Assembly (NCBI GenBank): GCA_964494005.1
Contig: CAZBQE010000001.1
Coordinates: forward strand, 8,126 to 60,621
DNA length: 52,496 nucleotides
Source of the DNA: an uncultured Candidatus Peribacteria bacterium
GTDB taxonomy: Bacteria; Patescibacteriota; Gracilibacteria; Absconditabacterales; Absconditicoccaceae
Direction: 5' to 3'
Under the pieces are notes generated by a model that ran no database searches, was not told the DNA's origin, and was given only the letters and a program-made list of their open reading frames with translations. Both the position numbers and the translations under genes were made by a program. Of this stretch, positions 1 through 52,496 are shown in pieces. Position 1 is the stretch's first letter, and each line of letters starts with the position of its first letter.

Positions 1-171
1 CAAGATCCGGAGAAAACCGAAGAAGCTACTCCAAAGCGAAAACAGGAGGCTCGTAAAAAAGGACAGGCCCCCCGAAGCACGGAATTAAATTCTGTAGTAG
101 TCTTATTAGCCCTTTTTGTAATCTTGAATTTTCTGGGCAAGTGCATATACAATAAATACCTTATTTTATAG
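1..171 (+). pseudogene. FlhB/YscU-type export-gate protein, N-terminal fragment only (enters from the window edge, stops at TAG 169-171)
   Basis: Frame 1 reads QDPEKTEEATPKRKQEARKKGQAPRSTELNSVVVLLALFVILNFLG. This matches the canonical FlhB cytoplasmic N-terminus plus first TM, then diverges and terminates after 56 codons. The segment is visibly GC-richer than the rest. Two CGA codons lie where FlhB has conserved Arg (TPKR, APRS), unlike the rest of the window. Confidence 0.4.
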
Positions 172-19641: not shown

Positions 19642-20757
19642 TTATAACGTCTTATCAGTCACTATTTTCCCTTTTACACACCCGTTCAAAGCATCTCTCT
19701 TGACTGCTTCAGATCGGAATTTCGTTAAAACCGTTGTAGAAGTGTAGGTCACTGGCCGTTTTTCCAATAATCACTTCATAACGATATAGCTTTCACAGAC
19801 GATGTATTTGCTTGGATTGGTAGTTTTTCCAATCATCTTGTTGGCGTAGGCAGTTCTTCGTTCTGGATAATATTGATTACTGAAACTCACATACGTGAAA
19901 CTGATATCCTTCTTGGTAATTAATGGCATTTCGTATTTTTTCAATAAGTAGATGACCGCATCCATAAGCGTTTGATTGCCGATAGTTGTTGGTGCTACAG
20001 GATCTGGTTCTGCTAATGTATCTACGGATGTTCAGATAACAGTTCCTGTTGCTTCTTTGACTTCTGAATCTTCTATAATATCGCTAAGGATTTCAGATGA
20101 TTCGATAGTTCATGTTGTTCATAGTCCAGTTCCCAATATTTCACCTTCTCCAGTAAAGATATATCCATCATGTGGAATAACATCTTGTCCGAGAAAGTTA
20201 TGAACAATATAGTCTTGGAATGAAGCTTGATAGTCTTTGTGTACGTGATAATAATCATATGCTGTCAAAGCGATACTGAGCACCAATAATATGATGTATA
20301 TTTTGGTTCCTATCAACGATCGGAATGTTTTGGTGATGCGATGTTTGAAAATGAATGTGAGTGAAATAAAGACTATGAATCAGAGAGATAATACAAAGAC
20401 AAGCATAATTTCCGGTGATGCAGTATTGTATTGGAACATAAAGAAAATGATTATAGCTACCAAAAAACTTGTGATAGCAGGCAGAGCAAGTTCTTTCTTT
20501 TTTTTGCGATCTTTGAGGGGACTGCGAACATGTTCGTGGAATGTGACTGTGGGTTCATGTATTGTTTTCTTTTCTGGAGTTTTTTCAACTTCAAAAGTTC
20601 ATTCGATAGTATTATAGAGGATACCGATTAGGATAATAGCTACGAGATTGATTGCTCCCAATCGAAAAAAATTCCCTTGTCCTCGAAGAATACCTATAAT
20701 GATAGGTTGTAGGACGAAAAAATAGATACTAAATAAGAGAAAAAGATTTTTTTTCAT
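19642..20757 (-). CDS. membrane protein (371 aa, about 4 TM, extracytoplasmic C-terminal domain)
   Basis: Track ORFs 20119-20316 and 19771-19965 plus unlisted segments share one frame through 7 TGA. It starts MKKNLFLLFSIYFFVLQPIIIG. Confidence 0.6.
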
Positions 20758-20939
20758 CGCTCATTTATAGAATAAAATAAAAATGTCAATTATTTTTACC
20801 TATATATCGGCATATATACACAATACCAAGTATTTTTCAAGGACAAAAGTTGCAAAATATAGAGAAAGGAATAGAATTATGATAGAACTTAGAACGTAGA
20901 TAGTAGAACTTAGATATTGAATAGTATTTATTTTATTTT

Positions 20940-21443
20940 ATGTTAGTTATGAAAAAACTTATTATCTGATGAATTATAATGTATGCAAGCCTGATCGTTG
21001 TATGATACGCTCAGATGATAGTTCCTGATTCCTCGAATTATATTCTTAATGAAAATGATCAACAAGTGCTCAATACAGAAGGTATAAATGATCCATTGAG
21101 AGATGGTGCATACAATATCACACAAACAAATGATCCTTCAAGCCCTTTGGATGTAGTGAGTTCAGATGATAAAATTGCTACTCATCAGAATGCTCAAAAT
21201 AAAACATTGCATATCATCAAAAGTATTATCAATTATGCTTTAGGTTTGGTGAGTCTTGTTGCTTTAGTATATCTCATCTATCATGGTTTCCTTATTGTGA
21301 CTGCTTCAGGTGACGATACGCAATACAAAAAAGGCCTCAAAGGTATCAAATTCGCTGCTATTGCATTGGTGGGAATTGGATTGAGCTGGCTTATTGTAAG
21401 TCTCATATTCCGATTGATAGCTTTAATTATTTGACCACTTTAG
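20940..21443 (+). CDS. VirB2/TrbC-like (T4SS-type) pilin candidate 1
   Basis: A signal-like N-terminus (MKKLII-GG-IIMYASLIVV-G-YAQ) is followed by the pilin architecture: TM1 LGLVSLVALVYLIYHGFLIV, loop TASGDDTQYKKGLKG, and TM2 FAAIALVGIGLSWLIVSLIF. Confidence 0.55.
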
Positions 21444-21446
21444 AAA

Positions 21447-21986
21447 ATGAACAACAATACACAAAAGCATATATCTAGATATCTCCTTCGAATAGTCGGT
21501 GTGATTTTTGGATGCGGTGCATTTTTGCCTGCGATATCAGTAGCGGAATTACCATCGATATCGACAGAAGAAACAATGTTCCCTTATGAAATCCAATGAC
21601 AAACGTATGACCCGACTACAGAGGTTGCTACAACAGATATAGCATCAGGACTTATAGCTCCTGATGTCACTGAAGATAATGCGAGCTTGATTCAAAGATT
21701 GACAGATTATTTTAGATTGAGTGGAACACAATATGACGATCCTGAAGCGCCAGCAACTAGCTATGTCAAACGAATACTCAATATATTATTATGATTAGTG
21801 AGTCTTCTTTCACTTGTGATGATTATCTTTGCGTTCTATCTGATCTTCTTTTCCAAATGAGATGAGGCAGTGACCAAAGCAAAAAAGATATTGATCGGTG
21901 TAGGAATAGCTCTTGCGATCATGGGATTGTCACGATTTATCGCAAGCTTCTTCTTTGATATTTATGGAACCGTAACTTGAACATAG
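21447..21986 (+). CDS. VirB2/TrbC-like (T4SS-type) pilin candidate 2
   Basis: Same architecture: LL-G-LVSLLSLVMIIFAFYLIFFSK-G-DEAVTKAKKILIGVGIALAIMGLS-[CGA]-FIASFFF. It starts 3 nt after pilin 1. Confidence 0.55.
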
Positions 21987-22010
21987 TTTTATCCTTTATG
22001 GTGTATAATC

Positions 22011-22712
22011 ATGCTATTTAATCTCTGAGATCAGAGCAAAATCCAAAAAAAGAAAATAGAAAATCTCTTCAATACCGAGACAATGTTGCCGATTTCCGAA
22101 ATCAGGAATGATACGATTATCATGAAGGATGGAGGGCTAAGAGCGATATTGAAAATCAACGGAGTAAACTTAGATCTCAAAAATACTGATGAACAGCAAA
22201 TCGTACTTGAACAATACAAAAAATTCCTCAATGGATTGGAATTTCCTATGCAGATACTTGTTCGCAATACGTTTTTGGATCTTTCGAGTTATCTTACGTA
22301 CATCAGAGGAAATGTGGACGGAATAGAAAATTCTGTACTCAAAGGACAAGGAGAAGCGTATTATAGATTTTTACAGAATATTGATATGCAGCAAGGACTC
22401 ATCTACAACAAAGAATTTTATATTGTAGTGCCTTATTACGAAAGTGAACAAGACAAGAGTTCTATCCAGAGATCATGGCGAGGAAAACTGCTTGATGTTC
22501 TCAATGCCAAAGATAGTGTCGAAAAAATCGTTCAGAGATATAGACAATTTATCAAGGGAAAAACTTCTCTAGAGACAAGAGTGAATCTCGTGACTGATGG
22601 GTTGAATAGCATGGGTATAGAAGCAGAAAAAATCAAGACATCAGACATTATTAACGTTTTGTTTCGTTACTACAATCCTTTGCTTCATAGCTCACAAGCA
22701 CCGATAAAATAA
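22011..22712 (+). CDS. protein resembling only the N-terminal domain of VirB4/TraC-TrsE conjugation ATPases (no ATPase domain)
   Basis: LPISEIRNDTIIMKDGGLRAILKINGVNLDLKNTDEQQIVLEQYKKFLNGLEFPMQILVRN matches the pattern at the start of Gram-positive-type VirB4 proteins. It ends at TAA 22710 with no Walker motifs, and a terminator follows. Confidence 0.45.
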
Positions 22713-22787
22713 ATGTAGAATTCAGAATGTAGAATGCAGAAATAAATTATTTCCAAGCTATTGTATACTCGCATCATAAAAGAAAAA

Positions 22788-22809
22788 ATCCGTAGAGGCG
22801 GATTTTTTT
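22788..22809 (+). terminator. rho-independent terminator
   Basis: atccg-tagagg-cggat followed by TTTTTTT. Confidence 0.55.
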
Positions 22810-22940
22810 AGTTTATAATACTTTATAATGTATAGTTGAAAATATATAGTTTATGGCATTACTGGAATATATTATCACAATAATATTATAGTCGATAAGA
22901 AGACAAATTACTTTATTGTTAGTTATTCATTCATTATGTT

Positions 22941-27200: not shown

Positions 27201-27366
27201 ATGATTTACCAGAACCGGAAACTCACGTGATAGTAATCAACTTATTTTTCGGGATTTCAATGTCGATATTTTTCAGATTATGAGTTTTTACTCCTTGAAA
27301 GGTAATCTTATTTTCCATATTTCCGACATTCTGGATGATATGTTTTTCTACAGATTTCTTTGCCAT
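24241..27366 (-). CDS. uvrA: excinuclease ABC subunit A
   Basis: Nine track fragments share one frame through many TGA. Motifs: [18 protein letters not shown], zinc modules, [23 protein letters not shown] and [10 protein letters not shown]. True stop is TAG at 24241. Confidence 0.95.
25812..25890. repeat. AAAGC/AAGCT-family heptad repeat inserted in frame inside uvrA
   Basis: gttcaaagctccaagtttcaagcttcaagctgcactttagacgactttaaacttcaagctttagactttaagctaag encodes [26 protein letters not shown] at a site where UvrA normally has only a few residues. Confidence 0.75.
26396..26483. repeat. ATCTGA-family imperfect palindrome in frame inside uvrA
   Basis: The arm gaaaaatctgaagaattgtctgaagaatctgatataacc faces gggtttctcagatttttctg. 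It encodes [28 protein letters not shown]. Confidence 0.65.
26659..26756. repeat. ATCTGA-family imperfect palindrome in frame inside uvrA
   Basis: The arm ttctgacgaatctgaaacatctgatatatt faces tttcagatatatcagatgttttctcagatttttcag. It encodes [33 protein letters not shown]. Confidence 0.7.
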
Positions 27367-27641: not shown

Positions 27642-28463
27642 TTAATACGTATTTTTAAGCTCCCAATCAAGCACCTTGATAAATCTAGGAATGATTCCAT
27701 ATCTTGTCGCTCCACTATATTCCTCTCCATAGCCATCGTAAACGTAGTTAGGATTGTTTGGGATGACAATATTTCACGAGATAGTTCCGCCATTGTAGAG
27801 TGCTGCATAATTTACGAGTCCTGTCATGGTGAAACCAGTATAGGTGAAGATAGGTCAGATTTTGGAATAATGCGCTCCGTATTTGCTTTTGGAGAAGTCG
27901 ATGTACTCTTGTATTGTTGTCAAAAATTTTCCTTCGGTGATTGTTCCTGTTCCGTAGTCTTTACTGAGAATTTGGAATGGTCCATCACCATTATTTGGGA
28001 GATAATATCCGCAGTTTGTCTCTCTATATCGCATAGCTATGGTCATCGCAGTCGGAAAATTGTTTGCGAAACTCATGCTATCAAGCGTATTGTATCGCCC
28101 GGTACAGGTGTCAGCAGTTGTAATGCCTGTACTAACATTTCCGCTATACGTATTTACAAACGCTTGTTTGAAACTAGTAGATGCTACTTTTGCTTTCACT
28201 TTTTCTGCATTGATCTGGGTGATGAGATGGATGTCGAGAATGTTTAGATAATATTCCAATTTTTCGTGATTAGCATATTGTTCTTGGAGATTTTTGAGCT
28301 GGATATAGAGCTTAGCTTTGCCTTGCATATTGCCGCTGGTGAGGGAGTTCAATTGATCCCTAAGTTGATTGATAGCGGTGACATCGTCGTTGTTTGGTGT
28401 GTACGCAAATGTAAGTCCAAAGAATACACTGATACTAATAAGTGAAATAACGAGTTTTTTCAT
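27642..28463 (-). CDS. secreted protein, possible GH23-type lytic transglycosylase (VirB1-like role)
   Basis: Signal MKKLVISLISISVFFGLTFA. MRYRETNCGYYLPNNGDGPFQIL resembles the E-S/T ... G-x-x-Q-I motif pair of lytic transglycosylases. The gene extends past TGA 27855 to TAA 27642. Confidence 0.45.
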
Positions 28464-28728
28464 AACGATTTGGGTAATAAGACAAAAAATAGGCGAAACA
28501 TTGTCGAATAATCGTCGAATATAGCTGTGATACAGCTATTGTTTGTCGATAATTAGTCATCCTCATGTGCTTATGCACCTATGAAACAATGTATACAAGT
28601 CCAACTTTCAATGTAGTGTTTTGTAGAGAACTTGCAAGCACAAAAAGAAAAAAAACATGTTATCAAGATACTGATTTCTTTTGACTATCACTTATAGTAT
28701 GTTCTTCGCTTGTAAGAGAGAAACTATA

Positions 28729-30684
28729 TTATTCTTGTGCTGTACTGTTATGGAAAGTTATTTTTTTGAGTGATTCATAATCAGTTGGTCGTGTTGCTGA
28801 TGTCGCGCTAGATCCTCCCATGAGGTTATAGAAGGCTTTAGCGTTGTTATTAGTATTATTAAAGAATGTTTTGAGTGATTCTTCGTCGGTTCATTTTAGT
28901 TGTCATAAGAATGTATAAGTAGAGTCATTAGTTTTAAGATTGGTATTAAGTGCTCTTATTTTGTCTGGCTTCTGAAGTATTAGTGCTACATTTTCCATCC
29001 ATCGCGTATCATTGATAGAGATTCCACCATCCTTTTTTTTCGCTAATTCGTTTGTTTTTTTGAAGAATTCTACTCCACTATCTGCTGAAGTATCTTTAGC
29101 AATTTTTGTAAGTGCTGATTTGTCAGTGTTCATCCATGGTTCTCAGAGGTCCATTTTGCTATTGAGGAAGGCTCTGAATTTTGTATCATTAGTTTCAAAT
29201 GATCATGATTCCAGACTACCGAATTCTCATCTTGTACTCACTCCCATACCTTCAAGTATGTCCTTTTTTTGTGACGTCAAAAGTTGTTGTGCTCATACAA
29301 AAGAAGCTCATCATCCAAGTGGAATCAATGGTAAGGTTTTCACCGTATCTTCGATAAACTTCGTAACGGGTTTCATGACGTCGCTGATAGGTCATTTACC
29401 TGAAGTAACTGCTATTTTGATAAATTGCCACATCAAAAACATAGTAAAGAAGAAGATGATGAGATTGACAAAGATACTCGTTCCTACATCTTGTATTCCT
29501 TGAGTAATCGATTCATTACCTAAGATACCACTTTCTGAAACTTCTATCGTCGATAGATTTTCTATGGTCATTGTAGAAGAGTTGTTTTCGACACTGATAT
29601 GGACATCATTAAAAGATTTTGGGAGTTCTCCTGTCATAATTCTTTGTATGCTTGCGACGAAAATGATAATAAATGCAAATCCGGCCACGAAGATGACAGG
29701 TTTAAAAATCAGATCGATCATTACAGAAAAATTGAGATATTGCATAATTCCTTTGTTGTTTTGATCTCATCCTATGCTTTTATCTTTTCCTTTGAATATC
29801 ATAGCGAGAACAATCAATGGTGATCCTATGACAAAAATTCGTAGGAATGCGACTCTGATGATATTCGCCAAAAACAATAAAGCGAGACCTAAGGTATACA
29901 TCAGGATAAGTACAAGTCTCAAAAGGAAGGCTATGGTAATCTCTCCCACGGTATCGGTTCATGCTACATCAAGATAATTCTGGAACTTGAAAACACTGAA
30001 TCCCAAGTAGATCAACGGTCCGCTTACAGAGTTGTAGGTCGGAAGAATCTCATTTCGAGAACTTATGTCTACAGTTTCATTGCTGATGTTTTCTATAGTT
30101 TTCAAGGAGTCTGCGGTGATTTTATATTTTTTTGGAGTTTTTGATAGGGATGTCTGGATATGGTTTTTGAGATTAGCATCGCCTTGGAGAAAAGTACTCG
30201 GAAAAGATCCTACTGCTGCTGTAGCGATTGTAGAGAGATCAACAAGTGCTCCCACGATAAACCAGCTTGCTTGGATGAGAATACCAGCAATCAAAGTTTT
30301 GGTGATGATATCTTTGAGATCCATTCCTTTTTTTCCTATAAGATTACTGATGATATTCCAGAGAACGATACCTACCAACGCAAAATTTGCGAAATTTTTC
30401 ATGATGTTCCATATTTTTCGAAGATAGATATCCATATGAAGAATAGCACCATATACCCAATCATTGGTCATCAGCTTACCAGCGAGGATAGCAAAGATAA
30501 TCCACAATCGCGAACAGAGCGATAGAATATCACTAAGCATTTTTTTTGTGCGTACCAAAGCATCTCCATCGCTTCCTGCTGCGAATGTCGGTACGATAAA
30601 AAATATTCCTATAATCAATAAAAGACTGACGATTTTGATCGTCTGCGGTTTCATAAGTGTTTTGAAAAGTCTTTTGAGGAACAT
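28729..30684 (-). CDS. polytopic membrane protein, VirB6/TrbL-like candidate (651 aa), paralogue 1
   Basis: Four track ORFs (29959-30684, 29767-29949, 29392-29745, 28903-29133) share one frame through TGA. There are about 8 TM spans and a soluble C-terminus of about 200 aa. The N-terminal 190 aa are colinear with the next gene. Confidence 0.5.
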
Positions 30685-30708
30685 ATGTATGATTGAAGTA
30701 AAGGAGTA

Positions 30709-33231
30709 TTATTGTGTAGGAGTATTGTCTGGAGTAGGTTGAGGTGGTTCTGTAGGTGCTGTTCCTGTATATGTGAACCCACTATTTCCGTCGTCGGTCG
30801 CGGTGATTGTTACTTGCTTATTTCCTACTGCTGCAGTATATTCTCTTTCCGTAGTGCTATTAAAATAAGTATCCAAATATTTTTTATTGGCTTCATTATC
30901 TAGTATAGCTTGGATATTATCTACTGTATTGTTTTCCGTCATTGTATTTATGACGTTAGTATCAAGATCGTCTTTCGCTAACGCGTTAATTGGTTTTTTT
31001 AATTCTGTAGGCATATTTTGTAAAATAGTTGTTTGTTCTGTAAGATCACTAAGTCCTGCTATTGCAGAATAAAATCATCCAGCACTTGCAGTAGCTACTT
31101 CTCCAGGAGTTGCGGTAATGTTTTGTTCTGTAAGATATGTTTGGAGATTCGTTACTGGTGTGGTTTTCATTCTCTCTATAAGTGTGTTTATTTGATCGTT
31201 ACTTAATGCGTTTTTATCGTTTGTACCTCCAGGTGTTCCACCAGAAAATCTCTCTATGATTTCATTTCTTTGTGTTTGTTCTCTTCTTTCTACCCATCTC
31301 TGAGGAGCTTGAGGAAGTTCTCTCATAGCAGTACCAAATCAGACTTTACCTTCCATTCCAGGAATAGGAATCACTGGCATAGTTTGGAAGACGTTTGCAC
31401 CGAATTCTTGGATACCTGCGCCGATCTTCGCACCGAGTGCGTTGGCTTTGATAGCAGCAAAAAGGATAGTCCACAAGATTCCGATAGCGAAGAAATTGAC
31501 AACTAATCGCGAGAATCGATCTAAACTTCCTCATCGATCGAAGTTCTCAAATTCCAATTCATGTGATCCATTGACGAGATATGTTTGGTTGTTGCTGTCA
31601 GCTGTTGGGATAGGTTGTATTTCAAGGTTTTCAGCTACTTTGCTAGATATTTGCTGGTTTTCTTCTGGCTCAAATCATTGGATGAGGGCACTCATAAAGA
31701 TCAAGGAAATACTCAATGCCGCTACGGTAATCACAGGAGCGAAAATAAGTTTGAAGACATTACCCAATTCCAAATGTTCTCAGAGTTTACCGAGAAGGTC
31801 TTTTGGTATAGCATCGTCGAAGATTTTTTTGAGAACAAGAAATGGCGATGCAGCGATATAGAGCCACAGTAAAGCTATCCTCGCTACTAGGACAACAGCT
31901 AGCGCAAGTAAGGGAAAAAAGAGCGCGATAGCAACTCAAGTCTTGATGAGGAAGATACCTGAAGTTTGTCAAAGCGTCGTCGTTTGGGTGTCAGTGAGAT
32001 TTGCAAAATTGAGTAAGGAAGAATACATAGTTACCAATGGTCCGACAAATCCTTTGGATTTGTTGATGAGTTCTCCTATGGTCAATGAAGTAGTGCTCGC
32101 ATAAAAACCACTTCCTGCGATAAATCATGGAGCATTTTGTCCTGATTTGATATTTACGGCATAGTTTTTGACTAGTGGTAAAGTTTCCCATCAAGAAGTG
32201 TTGGTGAGGTTAATCATATATCCTTGGTATCTGATATGTGAATCAAAATCTGTGATACTACCTGTTGTTTGACCAAAATATCCTACAGTTTTGATTCCAC
32301 TCATCAATGCGTCTTCATTCCATACAACCAACTGATTGTTAAAAGCAACACAGACTTCATGTCCAGGATAATAGCTGTCTGTAAAAATATCGGTATTTTT
32401 GAATTTTGGATCACCAAGTTCTCTTCCTATGATATATTTTTCTTCTATCCTACAAGGAGAAATATTTACTTGTTTGTTGGTAGGCTTGTAGGTTGCGGTG
32501 TATCGTACCTGGAAAGCGTCTCCTGCATCATTGAGATTGCTAAATTTATCTAAATCTATTTTGCTGCTAACATGGAGAATTCTTCTTTGTCCGATGTCAG
32601 TATTTTTTACAATACTAAGCGGTAATCCTCCTACTGCATAGGTTGCAATGGTTGAAATATCGACCAAAGCTGCCATGAGAAATCGGCTCGCTTGGATGAG
32701 GATACCAGCAATTAATGTTTTCTTGATAATATCTATCGGTCATTTTTCATCTTTTTGTACGAAAAAATTTTTGATAATAGCAAACAGGACCATAAATCCC
32801 AAAGTGAAGTTCGCAAAGTTTTTCATCATATTCCAAAATTTCCAGAGCGGAGCATCCAGATGAAATACTGAAGCGTAGACCATGGTGTTGTCCAAAGAAA
32901 GTCCAGCAACTACCAAAAGTGGCCAGAGTAGGAGATAAATGATTTTGAGAAGCATATTGAGAATTTCCCAGAGTCAAGATGAACTCGATGCTGATGTAGA
33001 CAAAGGTACGCAAGTATTAGTAGCTGCATTCCAGATGTGAGTTTCTGATTTGAGTTTACAAGCTGTTTCTGTTGTTGCTATTTCTTCTACTTCTGTTGTT
33101 GTTTCAGATGCTTCTTGTGCATAGACATTTTCGCCGATACCTACATATCCGTTTAAGAAAATACCTGATCACAACAAGATAATCATTATTCAGAATATTT
33201 TTTTAGTGAGTTTAGAATTGAATCGATGCAT
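30709..33231 (-). CDS. polytopic membrane protein, VirB6/TrbL-like candidate (840 aa), paralogue 2
   Basis: Track ORFs 32740-32955, 32191-32676, 31075-31326 and 30709-31014 plus about 900 nt with no listed ORF form one frame through TGA. I translated the whole gap and found no TAA/TAG. It has a signal/TM, several TM clusters and a Thr/Pro-rich tail TGTAPTEPPQPTPDNTPTQ. Confidence 0.5.
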
Positions 33232-42124: not shown

Positions 42125-45100
42125 ATGACAAATCAAATGAATAGCATTGAATCATTACAGACTGAGGTAAATCAGGTAAAGACTGACTTAGATTTGCTTA
42201 AAGCAGTGACTAATGAGACAATAAAACAAACTAAAGCAGAAAGCTTAGCGCAGGATGTTACTGCGACCAAAGAAAAAATCAAAAAAGAACTTGATGCACT
42301 CAAGTGACTTACTGATGCAACATCTTTGGAAAACACAAGAAAACTTGAAGCTATGCTTTTGACATTGGAAACATCGACTACAGAGCTTACTACGCTCAAA
42401 GCAAGCGTTACTACACCTTTGAATTCTTCAGAAGAAACACCATCAGAACTTCAGGAAGAACATAAAGAAGAACAAGAAGATGAAACCAAAGAGAAAAATT
42501 GGATCAAAAGACAATGGGACGGAGTAACGAGCAAAGAAGAATGGAAAACAAACACCTGAGCTAATATTGCTCGTGTAGCATGAGGGATAGGCGCTGTTTC
42601 TTTGGCAGTTCGATGAATCAAAAAACTTTTTGGTCGAGGAAAAAAGAACAAAGAGAAAAAAGAAGGAGAAGAGTCTACAGAAAAAAAAGGATTTCGACAA
42701 AAACCATTAGGTAAATTTCTCAAATGGACAGGAATAGGAACGGGTGCTTATTATCTTATTCATGGCTTTGTTACCGGGAAATGGAATTTAAAAGATTTTT
42801 TCGATTGGAATAAATTAGGTGCGGATAACCATGATGAATCGTGAGAACAAGTAGAATCATATACAGAACGAGCAGAAAAAAATCCTGAACAGAAGGAAAA
42901 ATATGAATCATTTTGAGATACTGTTGATGCTTATTATGAAAGCATATTCGCCAAAGAATTGGATGCAGGATGGGAAGATGACGCTGATATGTCATCGATT
43001 CCAGAAAATGTGGCTGCGAAAAATGAGGGAAAGAATATCGATGTTACGCTCAAAGGTGTTGTTCCGTATTGTATGGATAATAGTTTTTCATCAGTGAAAA
43101 GCATACTTTCCGAAAAAGGTATAGAAGTTGATATCTTTCAAAGAGATATAGCGGAAATCAAGACACGGGTCGTATGATGGATAAAATGAACACTTGGAAA
43201 ATGATTACTATGATTCCTTTCTGTATTGCCGTCTTTTATCGCGAAGGGAATAGGAAGCACTACCGAAGAAAAAGTTGAGAACCGGATAAGCAGCGGAAAA
43301 CGTGAAGACCGTATTGCGGAATTGAAATTCTTTTTCAGACAGCAAGTGAGGATGACGGTCTATCTCAACCAGAAAAAAAATGAATTGATCAAAAAAATAG
43401 CTGAAGAAAAATTAGCAGTGAATAATCCGGAAAATTTCGAAAGTGTCGAAGAGGCATTGAATGACGCTGATCGAGTGGAGAAAGAAATCCTGAATAATGC
43501 GGATTATACCAGTTTTATAAACGGTAGCATACTCAATGCTGTCGATATTATGAGAAAAAGGGATGTCTTTTGAGATACACCTGATGAAGATGTTCAGAAA
43601 GTCGTGGATGAAATAGATACACAAAGAGATGAAATTATGGACGGAACTTGCGGCGATGATATCATCACGAGATGCAAAGCGGATTTTGAAGATGATGGAA
43701 AACTGGAGACAGCAAACTCCACGGTACTTACAGAGTCATGTAGGAATATCATCAACGATATTACAGAAGAAGTGGAATGACCTATGGAAGAATCCATGCG
43801 GAATATCTATGAAGATCTCAGAGATAGCAATGACGCACAGCTCAGACAGTTATTGAAGGAATCTCCGCTACTGAAAATGTTCGGGGATATTAAACAGTGA
43901 TTGGAAGATATGATTTTAAAAATTCAGAACGGAACTTTCACTAAGGAGGATCTGGTATCGTTAAAAAAAGTCGTCAACAATTATTTCGCTTTCAAAAAGG
44001 AATTGATGATAGGGGCGAATACCTTTGAACAGATAAAAGACGAGAATGGAAATATTGTCATAAGCTTAGGAAAATTTTTGCGAGGATGTCTACAGAATAT
44101 CTGAGAAGGATTATTCTGAGGACATGGATTCCGAGAAGGGGCATGATATGTAGTTACGTGAGCGATACCGATATTTACGGTCGTAGCAGGAGTGCTGTGG
44201 TTTAGAAAACCTAAGAATCGATATAAGACGTGAGTGGCAATATACAATACAGTACCAAGAGTAAGCCAATCGCTTCTCCGGACAACGAAGACGATAAATA
44301 GAAAATATATGTGACCGCCGAGTATGATTAGGAAAGCATTTTTTGAGGGTGCTACCGGACCTACAAAGTTGGAGGCTTCATTGATGCAAGGAAATATTTC
44401 TTTGCGCAAAGCTTCGCAGATAGTGGATAACGGCATGAACGGCAAATTCGTTTGAAGAAATACCAAGAGCATCCGATTGACGAGATACGGAGCTAACAAT
44501 AACATCGATACCATCAAGAAGATACTCATGGACAAGATATTTCCGACATTCAAACTTGTGGATGATGAGTTGGAAATGGTGGCCAAGAATTTTGATAACA
44601 GGACATGGAACAAATTGCTTTTGACCAGCACCAACAAGGATACCATTAATCTTATGAAAAAATATGAAGCTTTGCAGGTTTCTGGAGAGAAGAAATTGTT
44701 CTTTGATAAGATATTGGATAGTGGAGATCTGTCTAAATCAGATATCCAGAAGCTCATAAAGTATGCGGATGATATAGATATAAGTAATTTGGAGACAAAA
44801 GAACTTAATAAAATAGCTAAAAAGCTCAGTAAAGAAATCTCTAACCTTGCTGATGCAAATGCAATCAATGCAAAAATAACCGACCTCAAGAAGACAGTCA
44901 ATGTAGTGGATGTTTTGACTGATGCACAAAAGGCATGTCAAAAAATGATAAACAATAAAATAAGTGTATTACAAAAACAGGTGTGAACATTGAGTGGTGT
45001 GGAGAAGAAGATTATGGAATTGGATATTGATAATTTAAGAAAGTTAGCACAAGATATGAAACACTTGCCAGATGATGAGGTGAAGGTTTTAAATAACTTG

Positions 45101-45403
45101 TTGTGAACAAATGTTTCAATGAGATATATAAGTAAAATATTGAGTGTTGATGATCCAATGAAAATTCTTAGTAAAATGAATGCTGCGACAAAAATAGATG
45201 AGTTTGAAATTATCCTGAAAAGTGCAAAAAATGCTGATGTTGATGATATGATCCACGCATTAAAAAGCATTAATAAATTTGATGGATTCCATAAACAATT
45301 TTTGAAAAATGTTGGTGTGATGAGCGATGCTGTACGTACATTGAAAAACTCACAAAAACTAATGAAAACGTTGAAAATTCTCGCAAAAGTGCCTATAATC
45401 TAA
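42125..45403 (+). CDS. giant membrane-anchored helical protein A (1092 aa), unknown function
   Basis: Seven track ORFs in frame 2 (42125, 42326, 42959, 43226, 43901, 44477, 45119) are joined. I translated every gap and found only TGA, no TAA/TAG. Stop is TAA at 45401. It has an N-terminal coiled coil, an acidic tract, hydrophobic hairpins and K/E-rich helical text. Confidence 0.75.
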
Positions 45404-45432
45404 TTTTTATTTGATAATCTTATATATCTACG

Positions 45433-48400
45433 ATGGTTGTAGAGTTGAAGATAGAAAAATTGAAGACTCAAGTAGACCAGATAAAAGCTGACCTTATTTT
45501 TCTACAACAAGAAGCATCAAAAAATGTTGTAGATTCTAAAAAAACAGAAGAATTAGAAAAAGAAGTAAACAAGGTAAAAGCAGATATTCAAAAAGAATTA
45601 GATGAGTTGAAGTGAAAGACTGACCTTTTGTCTTCCAAAAAATCCCAAAAGCTGGAAGAAATGTTGATTACTATAGAGACATCAGCATCAGAATTAGCTA
45701 CACTCAAATTGTGAGTAAGTGAGGATGTGTCTTCTATCGAAGAGGAAGAAGATGAAGAAGAGGAAAAGAAAGAAGAGGGAAAAGGAGAAGATGAAAAAAA
45801 ACCAGTAAAAAATTGGTTTAAACAACAAATAGATGGATTCACTGATTCTACAGAAGAACATCATGGATGGAAAAATGTCGCTCGTGTAGCATGAGGGATA
45901 GGAATAGTGGCAATATGAATTCGAGGAATCAAAAAATTATTTGGATTGGGAAAAAAAGAAAAAGATAAAGAAAAAGATACGTCTCCATCATCAGAAAAAG
46001 AATCGACTGATGAGAAAAAATGATTTTGGGAGAGTTGATTCGGAAAATTTTTTAAACGGACAGGAATCGGAACGGGTGCATATTATATTACGCGTGGACT
46101 TGTGAGCGGTAATCGATGATTCAAAGATTTTTTTAATCGAAAGAAAAAAGAAACAGAGGATGATGCTAAAAAAGAAAAAAATGCTCGAGTAGAAAAACAA
46201 AAACAAGAAGTGGAGGATATAGCTTCTGAAGTTGACAAAGTAAATAATGAACAAGATCCTGATCAACAACATCAAGGTGTGCAAAACATTGAAACGCTTA
46301 TTGTTACCAAAAAAACGACCATAGAACATAAGATTGAAGAATTGGAAAAAGAATGAAAAGAAAAAAATAAACAAGAGATAGAAGAATTGGAGGATATACT
46401 AAAAAAACTTGAAGGATATGAAAATGAAATATACCAAATCGCTGACAGAGAAAGCGTACAATGACCTATTTCTTGAGCAAGTGAAGACATAGAATCTCCA
46501 GAAGAAGATGATGGTTTGAGTCATCGGACTCATGTACCTGGAGCAGCGATAGCGGTGACAGGATGAACAGCTGCAGGCCGATGAACAGCCAAGATTTTAC
46601 AGAAAACAAAACTTGCAGCAGAATCAGTACCAGAAGCAAAGGTGATATCTCAGACAAGAAAAGGATTCGAAAATATAGTACAAGGGCTTGAATATAGGTT
46701 ACTCGATGATCAATTACTGGATGTGCAAAAACAAAATATAAAGAAATCGATACAATATTTCAAAGAGGCAGGAGAAAATGCTGATGTTATAGAAGAATTG
46801 AAAATATGGCAAAAACTTTGAGATAAGTTACCTATAGAGACATTGAACGCTTTGGATATAGATCCGATTTTAGCAAAACAACTAAAAAACTTCTCCAATG
46901 ACGCAGAATTTGTTGAAGCTATAGCAAAAGCTAAAAGTGAAACACAGATAAAAAATATTTTCAAGGCTAGGGGAGTTATTAATGTTCCAGATGATGTAGT
47001 AAAATTATTGAAAACTGCTAAATATGCTAATGAAGTGAAAGCTATTTCTAGGGTACTTTCAGTAACAAGACCGATCAAAGCATTGGGAAGATGATTGAGA
47101 ATGGTTCCGTTTATTGATTTGGCTGCAGGAGGAATAGATGTATGGTTATATTTTATGGAAGCGAGAGAAGCTGATCTTATCAAAAAAACTAATGAACTAA
47201 GATGATCAAACAAACAACAACAAGCAAATATGCATCTTGTACTTGGTGCAATTGATCTCGCTGTCGGGGTAGGTGCAAGTGCTATTATATTTGCTTCAGC
47301 TTGTGCTTCTTCATGACCTCCATGATGGGTGGTAGGTGTTGTAGCTGCTACTGCTGCGTTAGTAACCTGGTGAGTGAGAGAGGTGGCGGATACGTATTAT
47401 TATGAATTGGTTGATTTTTATCTTAGAAACAAAGAAGATTATGTAGAAATGTATAGATGAGAGATTAAATCAGCGATTCTTCAGGCGACTGTTCGTGGGG
47501 ACGATTCTTTTTCTTTGTCATGAACGGAATCGTTTGCTGAGATATTTAATCGAAGCAATAGTATAGATAAAAATAAAAAAGTAACTTTGGAAGACGCATA
47601 TCGAACAATGATATATATTGAAGAAAAAAAGCATTATCCCACAGTTGGAGTACTTAATCCAAATTATCCCAAAGATCCTGATCAACCATTGGAGTGAACG
47701 GATCTCGAACATTATACCAAAGAAAAAGAGAAGTTGGATAAAATTATAGCATTGAGAATGGAATATATCAAAAAGTTTTTGCCACACACTACTACGAGTA
47801 CAGATAAGTCAGATTATAATAAATATATTGCTGATATACAATGAGCGAAGTGAATACATGCGATAGAACAGATTGTGGCAGATTCCAAAACGTATCAATA
47901 TATGAAACAAGATACAGAGTTTGCAGGATACATAGATATAAAAAAATATCAAGCAGCACAAAGAACATCATTAAAAAAAGAGAATGAAGTGTGGTTTGAT
48001 CAATTAGAATCTATGTACAAAAAAGATCCAGCTACGATAGTAGAGTTGTATTATTATGTGATAGAATATGATATGGTAGTCAAAGATGAAGAGAGTTATC
48101 AAAAAGAATATGTATGAGTTTCGTCTCAGATCTCGTTTATCAAAAGATATTATGAATATACACTAGCTCATATTCCACCAGAAAAAAAGATGTTTGTGGG
48201 AAATATTTATGATATTCCTTATACAAAAACAGAAGAAATGCTAAAAAATATGGAATCAGGAAAAATAGACATGAATCCTATGGCATTTACGGAACAAGAC
48301 ATCAAGAAGCGTTTGGTGTATGGACTAGAGATCAATAGATTTGAAGAATCACATGCTGAATATACATCAAATATCGGACAAAATATTATCTATAGAATAG

Positions 48401-50385
48401 CAAAGGAAATACATGGATATGAAGGAGGAAACAATCATCTTGATTTGATACTGTATTTTACGCCAGAGAAAAAAGATTCTTTGGGAATGTATTTTGATGA
48501 TGGCTGGTATATCAATGTAAATAATTGATCAGATAGAGAATTTACATTAAATTTTTTAGATACAGCAACTCCTGAAAATATAGTATATCGATTTTTTGAA
48601 GGGCATGGTTTCACTAGAAATACTATAGATACTATAGATACAAGTACAGAAAATTCTGATGATGTACTTAATTTAGAATACCGTAATAGAGTAAGTAAAA
48701 TTGTTAAGGAAGAAAAAATTTTCCAAACATCAGCAAAAAATCGTGAAGTACAAAAAGAAATAGTAGAATACATCTCTCTCTATGGAAAAGAAGCTTATGT
48801 AAAGTTGCCATATAATTTGATAAATGATGCCAAGAGAGCATGATTAGGGAATGTGGAATATTTTTTCTTTAAATATAGTGGAGGAAATATAGATGCATGC
48901 ACATCCAAAGCATATGTAGATGAAAAAATCAATATCGAATCAATATCATGAGAATGAATACTTTTCAAAAAAATGTATATAGAAAATGTTCGTGAAGAAT
49001 TTTCCGATGAAGAAAAAAAATATATCGAGTATGTTGAATATGCTCATGATAGATTAGCACAACTAAGGGCGATAAAATGAGTATGATCACATGAAGATGA
49101 ATTAGATTTACCTGAAGAGTTTGAAAGACTCATAGGTGATAAATACAAAGAACGGTTAAATTTTAAAGAATCCTTGTTGTGATATGATCCAAACGTAGCA
49201 GCCAAAGAGTTGGTGCAAAAATATGCTATGTATCATGACTATTTTGAGAATTTGTATATGGCTATATTGATAGAAGTATCGTGACGTAAATTTAGTAATG
49301 ATATAGATAGTTATGAATATTTGCTATCTACATTATCACACATGGATATATGATTCTTTGATTTTGAGAAAAAGATATTGAAAGAGGGTATCTTGTCCAA
49401 AAAAGAAACAGAAAAATTGTATAAGATAATAAACGAAAAAAAGATATTTGGAAAAACAATACAAGAGTTGATACAATCATCAGACGAAGAAGAAAGAAAT
49501 AAAGGATTCTGGTGAGCGAAACAGATACTCAAAACATTTTTAGAGTCAAAAACGTTGTCTTTGGATGAAAACGCAAGGATAGAGAACATCAATAGTGGCG
49601 AAATTACAGAGAGAACTTGGGCTTTTGCTCTATGACCTTTTTGACCTGTTGCAGGAATAGCTGCAAATGTAAATTATGATATGAGAAAAAAAACAGTTAT
49701 GGAAGATATGTTGGAAAAAAATCTTAGAGAGGAGTTATATTTATGATATGTGGATATTGATACAAGCAATATAGCAAGTAAAAATCCAGAAGAAATAAAA
49801 GTAAAAAAACTGACAGAAAAGGAACAAAAAACCTACGATATCTCTCTCGAAACACTCAAAATGATAGAGTTAACACAAAATAATGTAGTACGACAAGATC
49901 AAAGAGGAAATCTTATGTTTGACCCAGAAAAAAGTACAATTACCAGTCGATGAGCAACAGTAGGTATAGATGTCGAAGTTATGAAGGTACAAGGATTGGA
50001 TATTGTGTGTAAAGATCTTTTGGAGCTTTTGTATATGGCTAATTTGATCAATTGGGTCAAAGGTAAACTTTTGAAAGAACATCCAAAACATACAGGAGAA
50101 TTCTTTTTTGGTAGAAGAACACGTACATTGTATGTAAATGATTCAACACGAAAAAGTGGACGAATGAATGATACGGATGTGGTAAGTATAGATGCTATAA
50201 AAGAAAAATATCCTAAGTTACTTAGCGATATTAACAAACAAACATTTTTAACTTATATTAATTCATTGTGATTGTCATGATGATCTTCAGTAGCAGCTAC
50301 AGCAAAAAAAATCGGTGATAAATTTGTTGATAAAATAACTGTTGAAGAAAATAAAGTTATAAGAAATGCTTGAGTATATAGATAA
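45433..50385 (+). CDS. giant membrane-anchored helical protein B (1650 aa), N-terminal paralogue of A
   Basis: Frame 1 is continuous from ATG 45433 to TAA 50383. I checked it codon by codon and found dozens of TGA but no TAA/TAG. It joins track ORFs 45433, 46843, 47875, 48190, 49750 and 49981. Confidence 0.75.
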
Positions 50386-50423
50386 TAAAATAAATAAAAT
50401 TTTAATTAATCACATACTATCTC

Positions 50424-51524
50424 ATGACTGAAGAAATTATAGAAGAAAATATTAAGGATTTGATACCTGAGGATATCACTGGTGAAATGAGTGAAGATAT
50501 TTTGACTCTCAAAAAAGAAATAGCCAAAAAATATATAGAGGAGCTCAAAGAAAAAAAAGATATGTGAATATGAAAATTACTTATCGGAGAAGGAAAGTCT
50601 CTCGAAAAATATCTCGTATCAGAAAATAAATGAGATCAGATAGTTGATACTATCAAATGAAATCTGATGGATAAGTTTTTTTGATCAGTAGATAAAGGAT
50701 CTTTTGTGATTGGATGAGTAACTTACAATTCTATTTTTGAGTATCTTAAACCAGTCAAAGAAAAATTGGATAATGCCAAGACGGAAGCAGAACTCAAAAT
50801 TCTAGAAAACGAAATACTTACGGCATCTACGATAGTTGCTCCTGCTGTTATTGCTTCTACAGGAGTTTCGACAAATGAAATACTTCCAGAATCTAAAGAA
50901 GAGATTACTGATAGGAGAGAGGCGGTGCTTGCTAATCTACAGGCGGTTTTGAATCAGGACGAAAAAGATGATATTGAATATAAACGATGAGGTTATAGTT
51001 CTATTGAAGCGTGATTGGATTGTTGAGGATTGATAGTCTATTGTGCCAATCAGGCATGACTGAAGGTTGGGGGAAATAGCAGGGAATTATTTCAGAAATT
51101 TCCGAGCAAAAAATTGGAAGTTGATGATAATGGCGCTATTGTTACTGATGTATCTCAGTTCAAAGAGGGGGATCTCTTGGTATTCGATTCGATCGATCCT
51201 GCATATCATGATACTCCAAAAAATAGATGACGACAGCGCGAAATTATTTGATCTGAGGGACAGAATATCCATCCACATCATTTCGCTTTCATCAAGAGTT
51301 TTGATCGCACAAGAGGGATTATACATATCGTGGAATCAAATGGTTCACAAGGAGTTACCGAAAGCGAATGTAGTATTGCAGACCGATTGGATAAAAACAA
51401 AAAGAAAGAAAAAATATCTAATTTACGGGCTGTTCACGTGAATTACGATGAATTGGAAAAACTTCCAGAAATAGATCTGGCTAATTTAGAAGATCTTCCT
51501 AATGCGAAACGTGCCGCAGCATAA
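50424..51524 (+). CDS. NlpC/P60-family peptidoglycan hydrolase with an N-terminal helical region
   Basis: The C-terminal domain reads EYK-[CGA][TGA]-GYSSIEA-G-LDC-G-GLIVYCANQAGL...EGDLLVFDS...HHFAFIKSF...GIIHIVESNG. This gives the Y-WGG motif and the catalytic Cys/His layout of NlpC/P60. Confidence 0.8.
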
Positions 51525-52411: not shown

Positions 52412-52496
52412 CATGGCGTGTCTCATTTTCTGGGTGATATTCATGGCGTGTCTCATTTTCTGGGTGATATTCATGGCGTGTCTCATTTTCTGGGTG
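52412..52496. repeat. 30-bp direct tandem repeat, 2.8 copies, truncated by the window end
   Basis: The unit catggcgtgtctcattttctgggtgatatt is repeated head to tail. The first copy forms the palindrome gagacatgccatggcgtgtctc with upstream sequence. It is related to the GAGACG element family. Confidence 0.85.

What the first reader, a model, noticed from the sequence alone, without database searches (positions are those of the whole stretch)
20940..22712. Two T4SS-type pilin genes followed by a VirB4 N-terminal-domain-only protein
Three tightly packed co-directional genes have spacers of 3 and 24 nt. Two are small secreted proteins with the VirB2/TrbC-like hairpin: TM, a short loop containing SGD or KGD, then TM. 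The third is a 233-aa protein whose text matches the first domain of Gram-positive-type VirB4/TrsE ATPases, but it stops at TAA 22710 before any Walker motif, and a strong terminator follows. Either the ATPase has been lost or split off and lies elsewhere, or this domain works on its own with the pilins.
Basis: partly seen in the sequence, partly recalled or inferred. Interest (0 to 1): 0.65.

Follow-up and report, generated by a model that had tools for sequence, protein, structure and literature searches.

The report
Two pilins and a TrsD protein
Three adjacent genes in a tiny, recoded Absconditabacterales (candidate phylum SR1) bacterium encode two type IV secretion pilin-like proteins and TrsD, the free-standing front piece of the VirB4 motor protein. 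This is an intact, conserved and already described feature of these bacteria, not a broken ATPase gene.

Summary
There are three co-directional genes, 20940-21443, 21447-21986 and 22011-22712, with spacers of 3 and 24 nt, followed by a hairpin terminator.

- **Pilins:** gene 1 passes Pfam T4SS_pilin. Gene 2 is its diverged paralogue (profile-profile probability 98.4%).
- **Gene 3:** it has no P-loop and matches only the N-terminal part of monoderm-type VirB4 (profile positions 94-280 of 894).
- **Not a truncation:** the 120 best of 896 homologues are 187-237 aa (full-length copies 229-237 aa; the shorter ones mostly come from contigs of a few kb). The pilin-pilin-gene 3 order recurs in all seven relatives' contexts examined.
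- **Split VirB4:** in other Patescibacteria the same small protein sits directly upstream of a 600-710 aa VirB4 that covers positions 283-892 of the same profile. The two are complementary halves.

This small protein is the TrsD family (Pfam PF26593 TraC-like). A 2025 paper describes it as the most abundant T4SS component of Patescibacteria, and as unlinked from virB4 specifically in the class Gracilibacteria, where that paper places 'Ca. Absconditicoccus'.

The ATPase half is not in the window or in any relative's locus I could fetch. I could not locate it elsewhere. This is an ordinary, known system, and interest is low.

The parts
20940..21443 (+). p1, 167 aa: VirB2-like T4SS pilin with an N-terminal leader and a C-terminal two-helix hairpin (loop SGDD)
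   Evidence: Pfam PF18895 T4SS_pilin scores 42.8 bits against a cut-off of 26.6, E 5.7e-11. NCBIfam NF045849, the Mbov_0395 pilin-like conjugal transfer protein, gives E 2.9e-9. Orthologues in relatives carry PF18895.
21447..21986 (+). p2, 179 aa: diverged paralogue of p1, a second pilin-like protein (loop KGDE)
   Evidence: PF18895 scores 24.7 bits, just under the cut-off, E 2.5e-5. All 4 orthologues hit PF18895 and one hits TrbC/VirB2. hhalign of the p1 family against the p2 family gives probability 98.4%, E 6e-15, over the 81-residue hairpin.
22011..22712 (+). p3, 233 aa: TrsD-type protein (Pfam PF26593 TraC-like). It is the free-standing N-terminal module of a split VirB4. It is soluble and has no P-loop.
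   Evidence: NF045975 VirB4_plasma gives E 1.3e-14 over profile positions 94-280 of 894. NF041427 TrsD/TraD gives E 8.3e-10. PF26593 is precomputed on the window's own product P0001 and on every listed homologue. All of the top 14 Foldseek hits are TrwK/VirB4 of plasmid R388. There is no Walker A motif.
22782..22809 (.). Hairpin with a T-run on both strands, between the convergent p3 and DUF1846 genes. It is the likely terminator of the three-gene unit.
   Evidence: Consensus scan. The RNA fold is -13.3 kcal/mol with z = -4.6.
19642..20757 (-). 371-aa polytopic membrane protein, transcribed divergently from p1. It is a conserved neighbour of the pilin genes.
   Evidence: A 352-436-aa counterpart lies in the same position and orientation in L001, L004, L144, L147, L148 and L151. 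It has no family hit.
27642..33231 (-). Three-gene envelope module that probably belongs to the same apparatus: 273 aa (27642-28463), 651 aa (28729-30684) and 840 aa (30709-33231). The 651- and 840-aa proteins are paralogous polytopic membrane proteins.
   Evidence: The module lies directly beside the 371-aa gene and pilin-pilin-TrsD in L004, L144 and L151. In L149/L150 homologous ORFs, fragmented by gene calling, lie about 2 kb from TrsD. In L147 and L148 it sits beyond UvrA, as in the window. The 651- and 840-aa proteins match at BLASTP 2e-28. In the list shown, every hit that carries a source name is SR1/Absconditabacterales, apart from one labelled Gracilibacteria and one 'uncultured bacterium (gcode 4)'. 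There is a weak fold hint to a chain of the R388 T4SS stalk/inner-membrane complex.

Best explanation
[quoted passage not shown] Inferred mechanism: TrsD docks on a ~600-700-aa VirB4 ATPase encoded elsewhere in the genome. There it supplies the membrane-proximal part of the VirB4 N-terminal domain. In full-length VirB4 that domain links the ATPase ring to VirB3/VirB6/VirB8-type membrane subunits, and VirB4 takes part in lifting pilin out of the membrane into the growing pilus. In this order the TrsD gene has stayed with the pilin genes and with a conserved set of envelope proteins (371, 840, 651 and 273 aa), not with the ATPase gene. Shown here: the identity of the three proteins, the complementarity of TrsD and the short VirB4, and conservation in size, sequence and synteny. 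Inferred: the physical TrsD-VirB4 complex, pilus assembly, the role of the envelope module, and the presence of virB4 elsewhere in this genome.
For: (1) Family assignments come. (2) Complementary halves: on the full-length VirB4 profile NF045975 (894 positions), p3 covers 94-280. Two other patescibacterial TrsD proteins cover 93-240 and 97-284. The 659-aa VirB4 encoded immediately downstream of one of them covers 283-892. On NF045971 the corresponding ranges are 12-123 and 171-730. (3) In 17 of 80 metagenome loci that hold a TrsD gene, a VirB4 starts right after it on the same strand. (4) Firmicutes plasmids show the same order: PrgI, then a TrsD-like 328-aa protein, then a DUF87 VirB4 of 661 aa, in B. 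thuringiensis BTB_502p. p3 finds 337 plasmids by tblastn, 239 of them predicted conjugative. (5) Not a truncation: the 120 best of 896 homologues are 187-237 aa and 65-100% identical. Full-length copies are 229-237 aa, and the shorter ones come mostly from contigs of a few kb. In the representative library, 1,597 clusters match and the best 150 are all 73-452 aa, none of VirB4 length. (6) The gene order pilin-pilin-TrsD, with the same flanking genes, recurs in seven relatives' contexts. p3 is far more conserved (65-100%) than the neighbouring 651-aa protein (28-53% among the 120 listed), which indicates strong purifying selection. (7) The fold model of p3 (pLDDT 65.8) retrieves only TrwK/VirB4 chains in its top 14 hits (best E 1e-2, probability 0.97). 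(8) Literature: PMC12102498 reports TrsD as the most abundant T4SS component of Patescibacteria. It counts 2,272 homologues, of which 2,209 are in genomes with a Patescibacteria-clade VirB4 and 1,664 lie next to virB4, 'with the notable exception of ... the Gracilibacteria class'. It describes pilin arrays of 2-11 genes and notes that TrsD is essential in Ca. Southlakia epibionticum. The same paper places Ca. Absconditicoccus in Gracilibacteria. VirB4's role in dislocating VirB2, and its N-terminal domain (residues 15-400 of TrwK), are described in PMC9259494.
Against: No VirB4 ATPase was found. A profile built from 10 patescibacterial VirB4 proteins finds nothing at E <= 10 in the window or in L001-L004, L144, L145, L147, L148, L073 and L083, and nothing at E <= 1e-5 in L149-L151. 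The same profile detects a Bacillus plasmid VirB4 at 8.5e-101. My attempts to find virB4 elsewhere in Absconditabacterales genomes failed for technical reasons, so its presence rests on the cited paper. The fold evidence is weak: no Foldseek hit reaches E <= 0.001 and TM-scores are 0.35-0.39. p3 is far below the curated cut-off of the narrow NCBIfam TrsD model (38.8 against 200 bits). No experiment has assigned a function to TrsD in any system. Whether the two-gene state arose by fission or the one-gene state by fusion is not resolved.
Confidence: 0.75

Rival explanations
1. TrsD works without VirB4 in this order. The ATPase half has been lost, and the conserved module of pilins, TrsD and envelope proteins either uses another motor (for example a type IV pilus or VirD4-type ATPase) or has a purely structural or assembly role.
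For: No VirB4 lies within the 52-kb window or within 10 kb in any relative. TrsD is tightly linked to the pilins and to a lineage-specific envelope module, not to any ATPase. It is under strong purifying selection.
Against: PMC12102498 finds 2,209 of 2,272 TrsD homologues in genomes that also have a Patescibacteria-clade VirB4. It maps Gracilibacteria TrsD onto the VirB4 tree, so those genomes do have virB4. Unlinked TrsD also appears in 63 of the 80 other patescibacterial loci, many of which are short contigs. Absence nearby is therefore weak evidence.
Confidence: 0.1
2. Gene 3 is a recent truncation or pseudogene of a full-length virB4 in this genome.
For: It stops before any Walker motif and a terminator follows.
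Against: Hundreds of relatives carry the same intact reading frame at 65-100% identity (full-length copies 229-237 aa), in the same gene order. No ATPase-like sequence is found downstream in any frame. The next gene is a convergent DUF1846 gene.
Confidence: 0.01
3. The genes are a decaying remnant of an integrated conjugative element acquired from a monoderm host.
For: The closest non-patescibacterial relatives lie on conjugative plasmids of Firmicutes and on mycoplasma ICEs.
Against: The composition matches the surrounding DNA (GC 0.33-0.36). The same recoded codons occur inside these genes. Synteny with housekeeping genes (two-component system, DUF1846, UvrA) holds across the order. The cited paper reports that most patescibacterial T4SS clusters lack a relaxase.
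Confidence: 0.04
4. p1 and p2 are not pilus subunits. They are small hairpin membrane proteins with some other role, and their match to the pilin profile reflects shared hydrophobic architecture.
For: The profile is short (71 positions) and mostly hydrophobic. p2 is below the curated threshold. No pilus has been seen in this lineage.
Against: p1 is well above the threshold. Both proteins also hit the independent NCBIfam pilin-like model. One p2 orthologue hits TrbC/VirB2. They sit directly upstream of a T4SS gene, as pilin arrays do in other Patescibacteria.
Confidence: 0.08

Closest known systems
TrsD of staphylococcal plasmids pGO1/pSK41 and TraD of pIP501 (MPF-FATA conjugation systems; NCBIfam NF041427)
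   Same: A small soluble protein of about 200-230 aa without a P-loop, homologous to the N-terminal part of VirB4. p3 matches the model at E 8.3e-10. No function has been assigned experimentally.
   Different: p3 reaches only 38.8 bits against the curated 200, over positions 16-67 of 201. The prototype trsD lies directly upstream of virB4 (trsE) on a conjugative plasmid. Here the gene is chromosomal, follows two pilin genes, and has no virB4 within reach.
The chromosomal T4SS of Patescibacteria (Ca. Southlakia epibionticum ML1, Nanosynbacter lyticus TM7x; Quinonero-Coronel et al. 2025, PMC12102498)
   Same: The same component set is present: VirB2-like pilin arrays (PF18895) and a TrsD homologue. 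The paper reports that most such clusters lack a relaxase and concludes that the system serves functions other than conjugation. It also reports that TrsD and the pilins are essential for epibiotic growth in strain ML1.
   Different: In Saccharimonadia and most other classes, TrsD sits beside virB4 with VirB3 and VirB6. In Absconditabacterales it is separated from virB4 and joined to the pilins and to four lineage-specific envelope proteins. The paper detected no VirB6 homologue in this class.
Mycoplasma ICE conjugation genes (Mbov_0395 pilin-like protein, Mbov_0397 VirB4; NCBIfam NF045849, NF045975)
   Same: A pilin-like hairpin protein lies close to a VirB4-type gene. p1 and p2 hit NF045849, and p3 hits NF045975.
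   Different: Mbov_0397 is a single 894-position protein that contains both the TrsD-like part and the ATPase. Here only positions 94-280 are encoded at this locus.
N-terminal domain of TrwK/VirB4 in the R388 T4SS (PDB 7O43, 8RTB, 8RTD)
   Same: It is the only fold that the p3 model retrieves (top 14 hits). The review PMC12857230, summarising the R388 structures, says the VirB4 N-terminal domains join the two protomers of each VirB4 dimer, embed in the inner membrane, and contact VirB3 and VirB8.
   Different: It is covalently part of an 823-aa ATPase in a diderm system. Sequence identity to p3 is 7-16%, and the match is weak (E about 1e-2, TM about 0.35).

Membership tests
T4SS_pilin (Pfam PF18895; VirB2-like pilins) | Profile match above the curated gathering score | tested here: met
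   p1 scores 42.8 bits against 26.6. p2 alone falls short at 24.7 bits. All 4 p2 orthologues match at E about 1e-5, and the p2 family aligns to the p1 family with probability 98.4%.
T4SS_pilin (Pfam PF18895; VirB2-like pilins) | An N-terminal leader followed by two hydrophobic helices joined by a short charged loop | tested here: met
   This is read directly from the translations. In p1 the helices are about residues 92-120 and 135-165 with loop TASGDDTQYKKG. In p2 they are about 108-135 and 147-175 with loop SKGDEAVTKAKK.
T4SS_pilin (Pfam PF18895; VirB2-like pilins) | Encoded with other T4SS genes | tested here: met
   TrsD follows 24 nt downstream. The order is conserved in seven relatives' contexts.
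T4SS_pilin (Pfam PF18895; VirB2-like pilins) | Processed and polymerised into an extracellular pilus | not testable with these tools
   This needs microscopy or biochemistry.
TrsD / TraC-like (Pfam PF26593; NCBIfam NF041427) | Homology restricted to the N-terminal part of VirB4 | tested here: met
   NF045975 positions 94-280 of 894, E 1.3e-14. TIGR00929 positions 7-180 of 792. PF11130 TraC_F_IV hits 12 of 49 family members. Foldseek returns only VirB4 chains in its top 14 hits.
TrsD / TraC-like (Pfam PF26593; NCBIfam NF041427) | Stand-alone protein of about 200-250 aa with no nucleotide-binding motifs | tested here: met
   p3 is 233 aa and full-length relatives are 229-237 aa. It has no Walker A motif.
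TrsD / TraC-like (Pfam PF26593; NCBIfam NF041427) | Match to the family model at the curated threshold | tested here: inconclusive
   PF26593 is recorded for the window's own product P0001 and for all 120 listed homologues. My own Pfam scan returned no family for p3 at E <= 1, so I could not reproduce that hit or see its score. NF041427 gives only 38.8 bits against the curated 200, so p3 is not a member of that narrow Firmicutes subfamily.
TrsD / TraC-like (Pfam PF26593; NCBIfam NF041427) | Encoded immediately upstream of virB4, as in pGO1 and most Patescibacteria | tested here: not met
   No VirB4 is found in the window or in 11 loci from Absconditabacterales relatives (L001-L004, L144, L145, L147-L151). 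This agrees with the exception the literature reports for the class Gracilibacteria.
VirB4 / TraC / CagE ATPase | C-terminal P-loop ATPase domain with Walker A and B motifs | tested here: not met
   p3 ends at profile position 280 of 894 and has no Walker A motif. Its scores of 52.9 and 16 bits are far below the cut-offs of 590 and 643. It is not a VirB4 ATPase.
VirB6 (for the neighbouring 651- and 840-aa proteins) | Polytopic membrane protein with sequence or fold similarity to VirB6/TrbL/PrgH, encoded with T4SS genes | tested here: inconclusive
   There is no Pfam or NCBIfam hit. The AF2 model of homologue P0271 has pLDDT 61.6. The second-best Foldseek hit is a 268-residue chain of the R388 stalk/inner-membrane complex (8rtd_L), with probability 0.75, E 0.32 and TM 0.43 on the target. 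I did not verify which subunit that chain is. Gene linkage to the pilins and TrsD is met.

The most novel reading that the evidence does not exclude
In Absconditabacterales, TrsD has become an autonomous component. It acts with the two pilins and a lineage-specific envelope module, whose two paralogous polytopic proteins would be the 'missing', extremely diverged VirB6 of this class. Together they would form a pilus-base machine that works without a VirB4 ATPase, or with a different motor.
Probability: 0.08. Interest if true: 0.6.

Novelty: new member of a known kind. Interest (0 to 1): 0.25.

Why it matters
[quoted passage not shown] This locus is a clean example of two points that help annotation:

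- The small 'hypothetical' protein next to the pilins is the front part of a two-gene VirB4, not a damaged ATPase. On full-length VirB4 profiles the two halves meet at a precise junction.
- In Absconditabacterales this front part travels with the pilins and with four unannotated envelope proteins, not with the motor. That linkage nominates those four proteins as candidates for the VirB6/VirB8/VirB1-type parts that profile searches miss in this class.

Neither point changes the picture of how T4SSs work.

Tried and rejected
1. Table 11 ORF calling is useless here. It was replaced by TGA = Gly with CGA/CGG = Trp.
2. phmmer of p3 and of the 273-aa protein against PDB sequences gave no hits.
3. 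The local Pfam scan gave nothing for p3. The PF26593 assignment comes from the precomputed annotations.
P0001, the database's translation of the same gene with TGA read as Trp, was used instead.
5. Locating virB4 in Absconditabacterales failed. A genome-contig scan used a degenerate DNA pattern for the Walker B motif [IV]DEAWWxM[QK], with the first Trp written as CGR. It returned 59 hits that look like chance: none is from Absconditabacterales, and about 17 were expected by my own estimate. A viral-contig scan with the VirB4 alignment found nothing. The supplement of PMC12102498 is truncated and names no Absconditabacterales assembly. The Vampirococcus, SR1 and Gracilibacteria genome papers do not mention VirB4.
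6. I ran no further search on a patescibacterial VirB4. Only the best 120 hits are listed, and they would all be close relatives of the query.
A 7-sequence alignment worked.
8. No RNA runs hold this organism, so co-transcription could not be checked.
9. Recent truncation and an ICE remnant were considered and rejected (see the rival explanations).
Full report
**Reading the window.** With the standard bacterial code the region breaks into short ORFs. Allowing TGA as a sense codon nearly triples the summed length of long ORFs. In UvrA, TGA falls on invariant glycines of the Walker A and signature motifs, which indicates code 25. In addition, the three invariant tryptophans of the ValRS motif DTWFSSALWPFSTMGWP are written CGA, CGG and CGA. 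CGA also occurs in p1 (codon 158) and p3 (codon 157), at positions where some orthologues have Trp. From memory, not checked here, Shulgina and Eddy (2021) reported CGA/CGG-to-Trp reassignment on top of TGA = Gly in an Absconditabacterales clade. The names that sources give to homologues (candidate division SR1, Candidatus Absconditabacterales, Absconditicoccaceae) agree with this. All proteins below were translated with TGA = Gly and CGA/CGG = Trp.

**The observation.** The genes lie at 20940-21443 (167 aa), 21447-21986 (179 aa) and 22011-22712 (233 aa, TAA stop), with spacers of 3 and 24 nt. The two small proteins have a leader plus a two-helix hairpin with SGD and KGD loops. The third protein has no Walker motif. 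A hairpin terminator lies at 22782-22809, folding at -13.3 kcal/mol with z = -4.6.

**The two small proteins.** p1 passes the curated threshold of Pfam T4SS_pilin (42.8 against 26.6 bits). p2 is just below it at 24.7 bits. Both also hit NCBIfam's mycoplasma-ICE pilin-like model. I took the orthologues of both genes from three relatives' loci. All four p2-type proteins hit T4SS_pilin, and one hits TrbC/VirB2. The two families align profile-to-profile over the whole 81-residue hairpin with probability 98.4%. They are therefore a pair of diverged VirB2-like pilin paralogues. Tandem arrays of 2-11 such genes, averaging only 25% identity within an array, are reported as common in Patescibacteria (PMC12102498).

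**The third protein.**
- It has no hit in PDB sequences, and my Pfam scan returned no family for it.
- NCBIfam gives three N-terminal-only matches: the mycoplasma-ICE VirB4 model NF045975 (E 1.3e-14, positions 94-280 of 894), TrsD/TraD (E 8.3e-10), and VirB4_CagE weakly.
- The homologue search found 896 relatives. The best 120 are 187-237 aa and 65-100% identical to p3. Full-length copies are 229-237 aa, and the shorter ones mostly come from contigs of a few kb. All 120 carry the precomputed Pfam family PF26593, named TraC-like in the contig tables.
- The exhaustive representative search found 1,597 clusters. The best 150 are 73-452 aa, and none has the length of a VirB4.
- Twelve of 49 diverse members also hit PF11130, the TraC protein family of F-type systems.
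- An AlphaFold model (pLDDT 65.8) retrieves only R388 TrwK/VirB4 chains in its first 14 Foldseek hits. The statistics are weak: best E 1e-2, probability 0.97, TM 0.35-0.39.

**A split gene, not a truncation.** I fetched 80 metagenome loci that carry TrsD-type genes from standard-code Patescibacteria. In 17 of them a VirB4 follows immediately on the same strand, and full-length copies are about 600-710 aa. Scanning one such pair against NCBIfam gives complementary coverage of full-length VirB4 models. On NF045975 the TrsD covers 93-240 and the VirB4 covers 283-892. On NF045971 the ranges are 12-123 and 171-730. p3 itself covers 94-280. TrsD plus the short VirB4 therefore equals one full-length monoderm VirB4. 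The same arrangement exists on Firmicutes plasmids. p3 finds 337 plasmids by tblastn, 239 of them predicted conjugative. In B. thuringiensis BTB_502p the order is PrgI (VirB3-like), a TrsD-like 328-aa protein, a DUF87 VirB4 of 661 aa, a large protein, and NlpC/P60.

**The literature.** Quinonero-Coronel et al. [quoted passage not shown] No function has been assigned, but TrsD is essential in Ca. Southlakia epibionticum. That paper places Ca. Absconditicoccus in Gracilibacteria.

**The neighbourhood in relatives.** Seven relatives' contexts all keep pilin-pilin-TrsD in this order (L001-L003, L004, L144, L147, L148, L149/L150, L151). In six of them, all but L149/L150, the three genes lie between a divergently transcribed 352-436-aa membrane protein and a convergent DUF1846 gene (in L147 and L148 one small ORF intervenes before DUF1846).

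A second module is linked to them. It comprises an ~820-840-aa and a ~625-650-aa polytopic membrane protein and a ~275-aa secreted protein. The two polytopic proteins are paralogues of each other (BLASTP 2e-28).
- In L004, L144 and L151 this module directly adjoins the membrane protein.
- In L149/L150, homologous ORFs, fragmented by gene calling, lie about 2 kb downstream of TrsD.
- In the window, L147 and L148 it sits beyond UvrA (window 27642-33231).

In the list shown, every hit of the 651-aa family that carries a source name is SR1/Absconditabacterales, apart from one labelled Gracilibacteria and one 'uncultured bacterium (gcode 4)'. The family evolves fast (28-53% identity among the 120 listed) and has no Pfam hit. 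Its fold model is mediocre (pLDDT 61.6). The one hit of that model that stands out is a chain of the R388 stalk/inner-membrane complex (probability 0.75, E 0.32). That is a hint and not a result. It matters because the 2025 paper found VirB6 'absent' in Gracilibacteria and suspected extreme divergence.

**Where is the ATPase?** The only P-loops in real ORFs of the window are UvrA's. An HMM built from ten patescibacterial VirB4 proteins finds nothing in the window or in any locus from Absconditabacterales or other code-25 lineages. The threshold was E <= 10 for most of these loci and 1e-5 for L149-L151. The same HMM detects the Bacillus plasmid VirB4 at 8.5e-101. So virB4 is not within about 20 kb upstream or 30 kb downstream here, nor within 10 kb in relatives. 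I could not reach the rest of any Absconditabacterales genome, and a targeted DNA-pattern scan returned only what look like chance hits. That virB4 lies elsewhere is therefore inferred from the paper's statistics, not shown.

**Mechanism.** In the R388 system, VirB4 takes part in dislocating VirB2 pilin from the membrane during pilus growth (PMC9259494). According to the review PMC12857230, the VirB4 N-terminal domains join the two protomers of each dimer, embed in the inner membrane, and contact VirB3 and VirB8. The most economical reading is that TrsD supplies this membrane-proximal module in trans to a short VirB4. Its co-expression with the pilins in this order would then reflect a role at the pilin-handling end of the machine. 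This step is inference. I put the overall explanation at 0.75, an autonomous TrsD without VirB4 at about 0.1, and the truncation and ICE-remnant readings at a few per cent or less.

**Verdict.** What is there is an ordinary, conserved member of a system already described in 2025. The modest additions here are three: the explicit junction mapping of the two VirB4 halves, the order-wide linkage of TrsD with the pilins, and a four-gene envelope module that may hold the undetected membrane subunits.

Noticed in passing
whole window; e.g. 1534-1584 (ValRS), 27223-27225 (UvrA), codon 158 of p1, codon 157 of p3: There is a double recoding. TGA is read as Gly, and CGA/CGG sit at invariant Trp positions: 121 CGA and 24 CGG against 88 TGG in the ORF set. 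Standard and code-25 translations both put Arg where Trp belongs.
   Followed up: partly
window 1-170: A 56-aa open stretch matches the N-terminus of FlhB/YscU/SpaS export proteins (PF01312, E 1.8e-14, profile positions 2-50 of 335) and then hits a stop, just upstream of valS. A flagellar or T3SS export gene fragment is unexpected in this lineage. It could be a foreign fragment, a relic or an assembly chimera.
   Followed up: no
window 27642-33231 (-) and 19642-20757 (-): Four unannotated envelope proteins (273, 651, 840 and 371 aa) are linked to pilin-pilin-TrsD across the order. The 651- and 840-aa proteins are paralogous polytopic membrane proteins, and nearly all of their named homologues are from SR1/Absconditabacterales. 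A weak fold hint points to a chain of the R388 T4SS stalk/inner-membrane complex. They are candidates for the VirB6-type parts not detected in this class.
   Followed up: partly
window 42125-51524 (+): Two large paralogue-looking proteins (1092 and 1650 aa) start with similar coiled-coil N-termini and a similar hydrophobic segment. They are followed by a 366-aa NlpC/P60 cell-wall hydrolase (PF00877, E 4.4e-7). In monoderm T4SS loci an NlpC/P60 hydrolase plays the VirB1 role. No link to the pilin locus was tested.
   Followed up: no
window 52412-52496: A perfect 30-nt tandem repeat (CATGGCGTGTCTCATTTTCTGGGTGATATT, 2.8 copies) runs into the end of the window.
   Followed up: no
window 20883-20917 and 22712-22739: Short direct repeats flank the operon. 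TAGAACTTAGA-type units with 14-nt spacing lie about 25-55 nt upstream of p1. Two copies of AATGTAGAAT[T/G]CAG follow the p3 stop immediately. They could be regulatory sites or chance in AT-rich DNA.
   Followed up: no
loci L073 (4894-6056) and L083 (9514-10705): In two other lineages in which TGA is a sense codon, a PrgI/VirB3-like protein of 139-153 aa directly precedes TrsD, again with no VirB4 nearby. I recognised it by eye from its N-terminal sequence and did not test it with a profile. In Absconditabacterales that position is taken by the second pilin instead.
   Followed up: partly
loci L012-L059 (metagenome set): Many standard-code patescibacterial TrsD genes are also unlinked from virB4. 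In a recurrent context (L053) the neighbours are a Clp-type AAA+ chaperone of about 870 aa, a ~200-aa protein, TrsD and an S1-domain-like protein, identified by eye only. Only 17 of the 80 loci show an adjacent VirB4, though many contigs are short.
   Followed up: partly
window 20700-22900: Near-identical DNA occurs in bioreactor, wastewater, landfill, lagoon, manure and anaerobic-digester metagenomes. No RNA runs were found.
   Followed up: no
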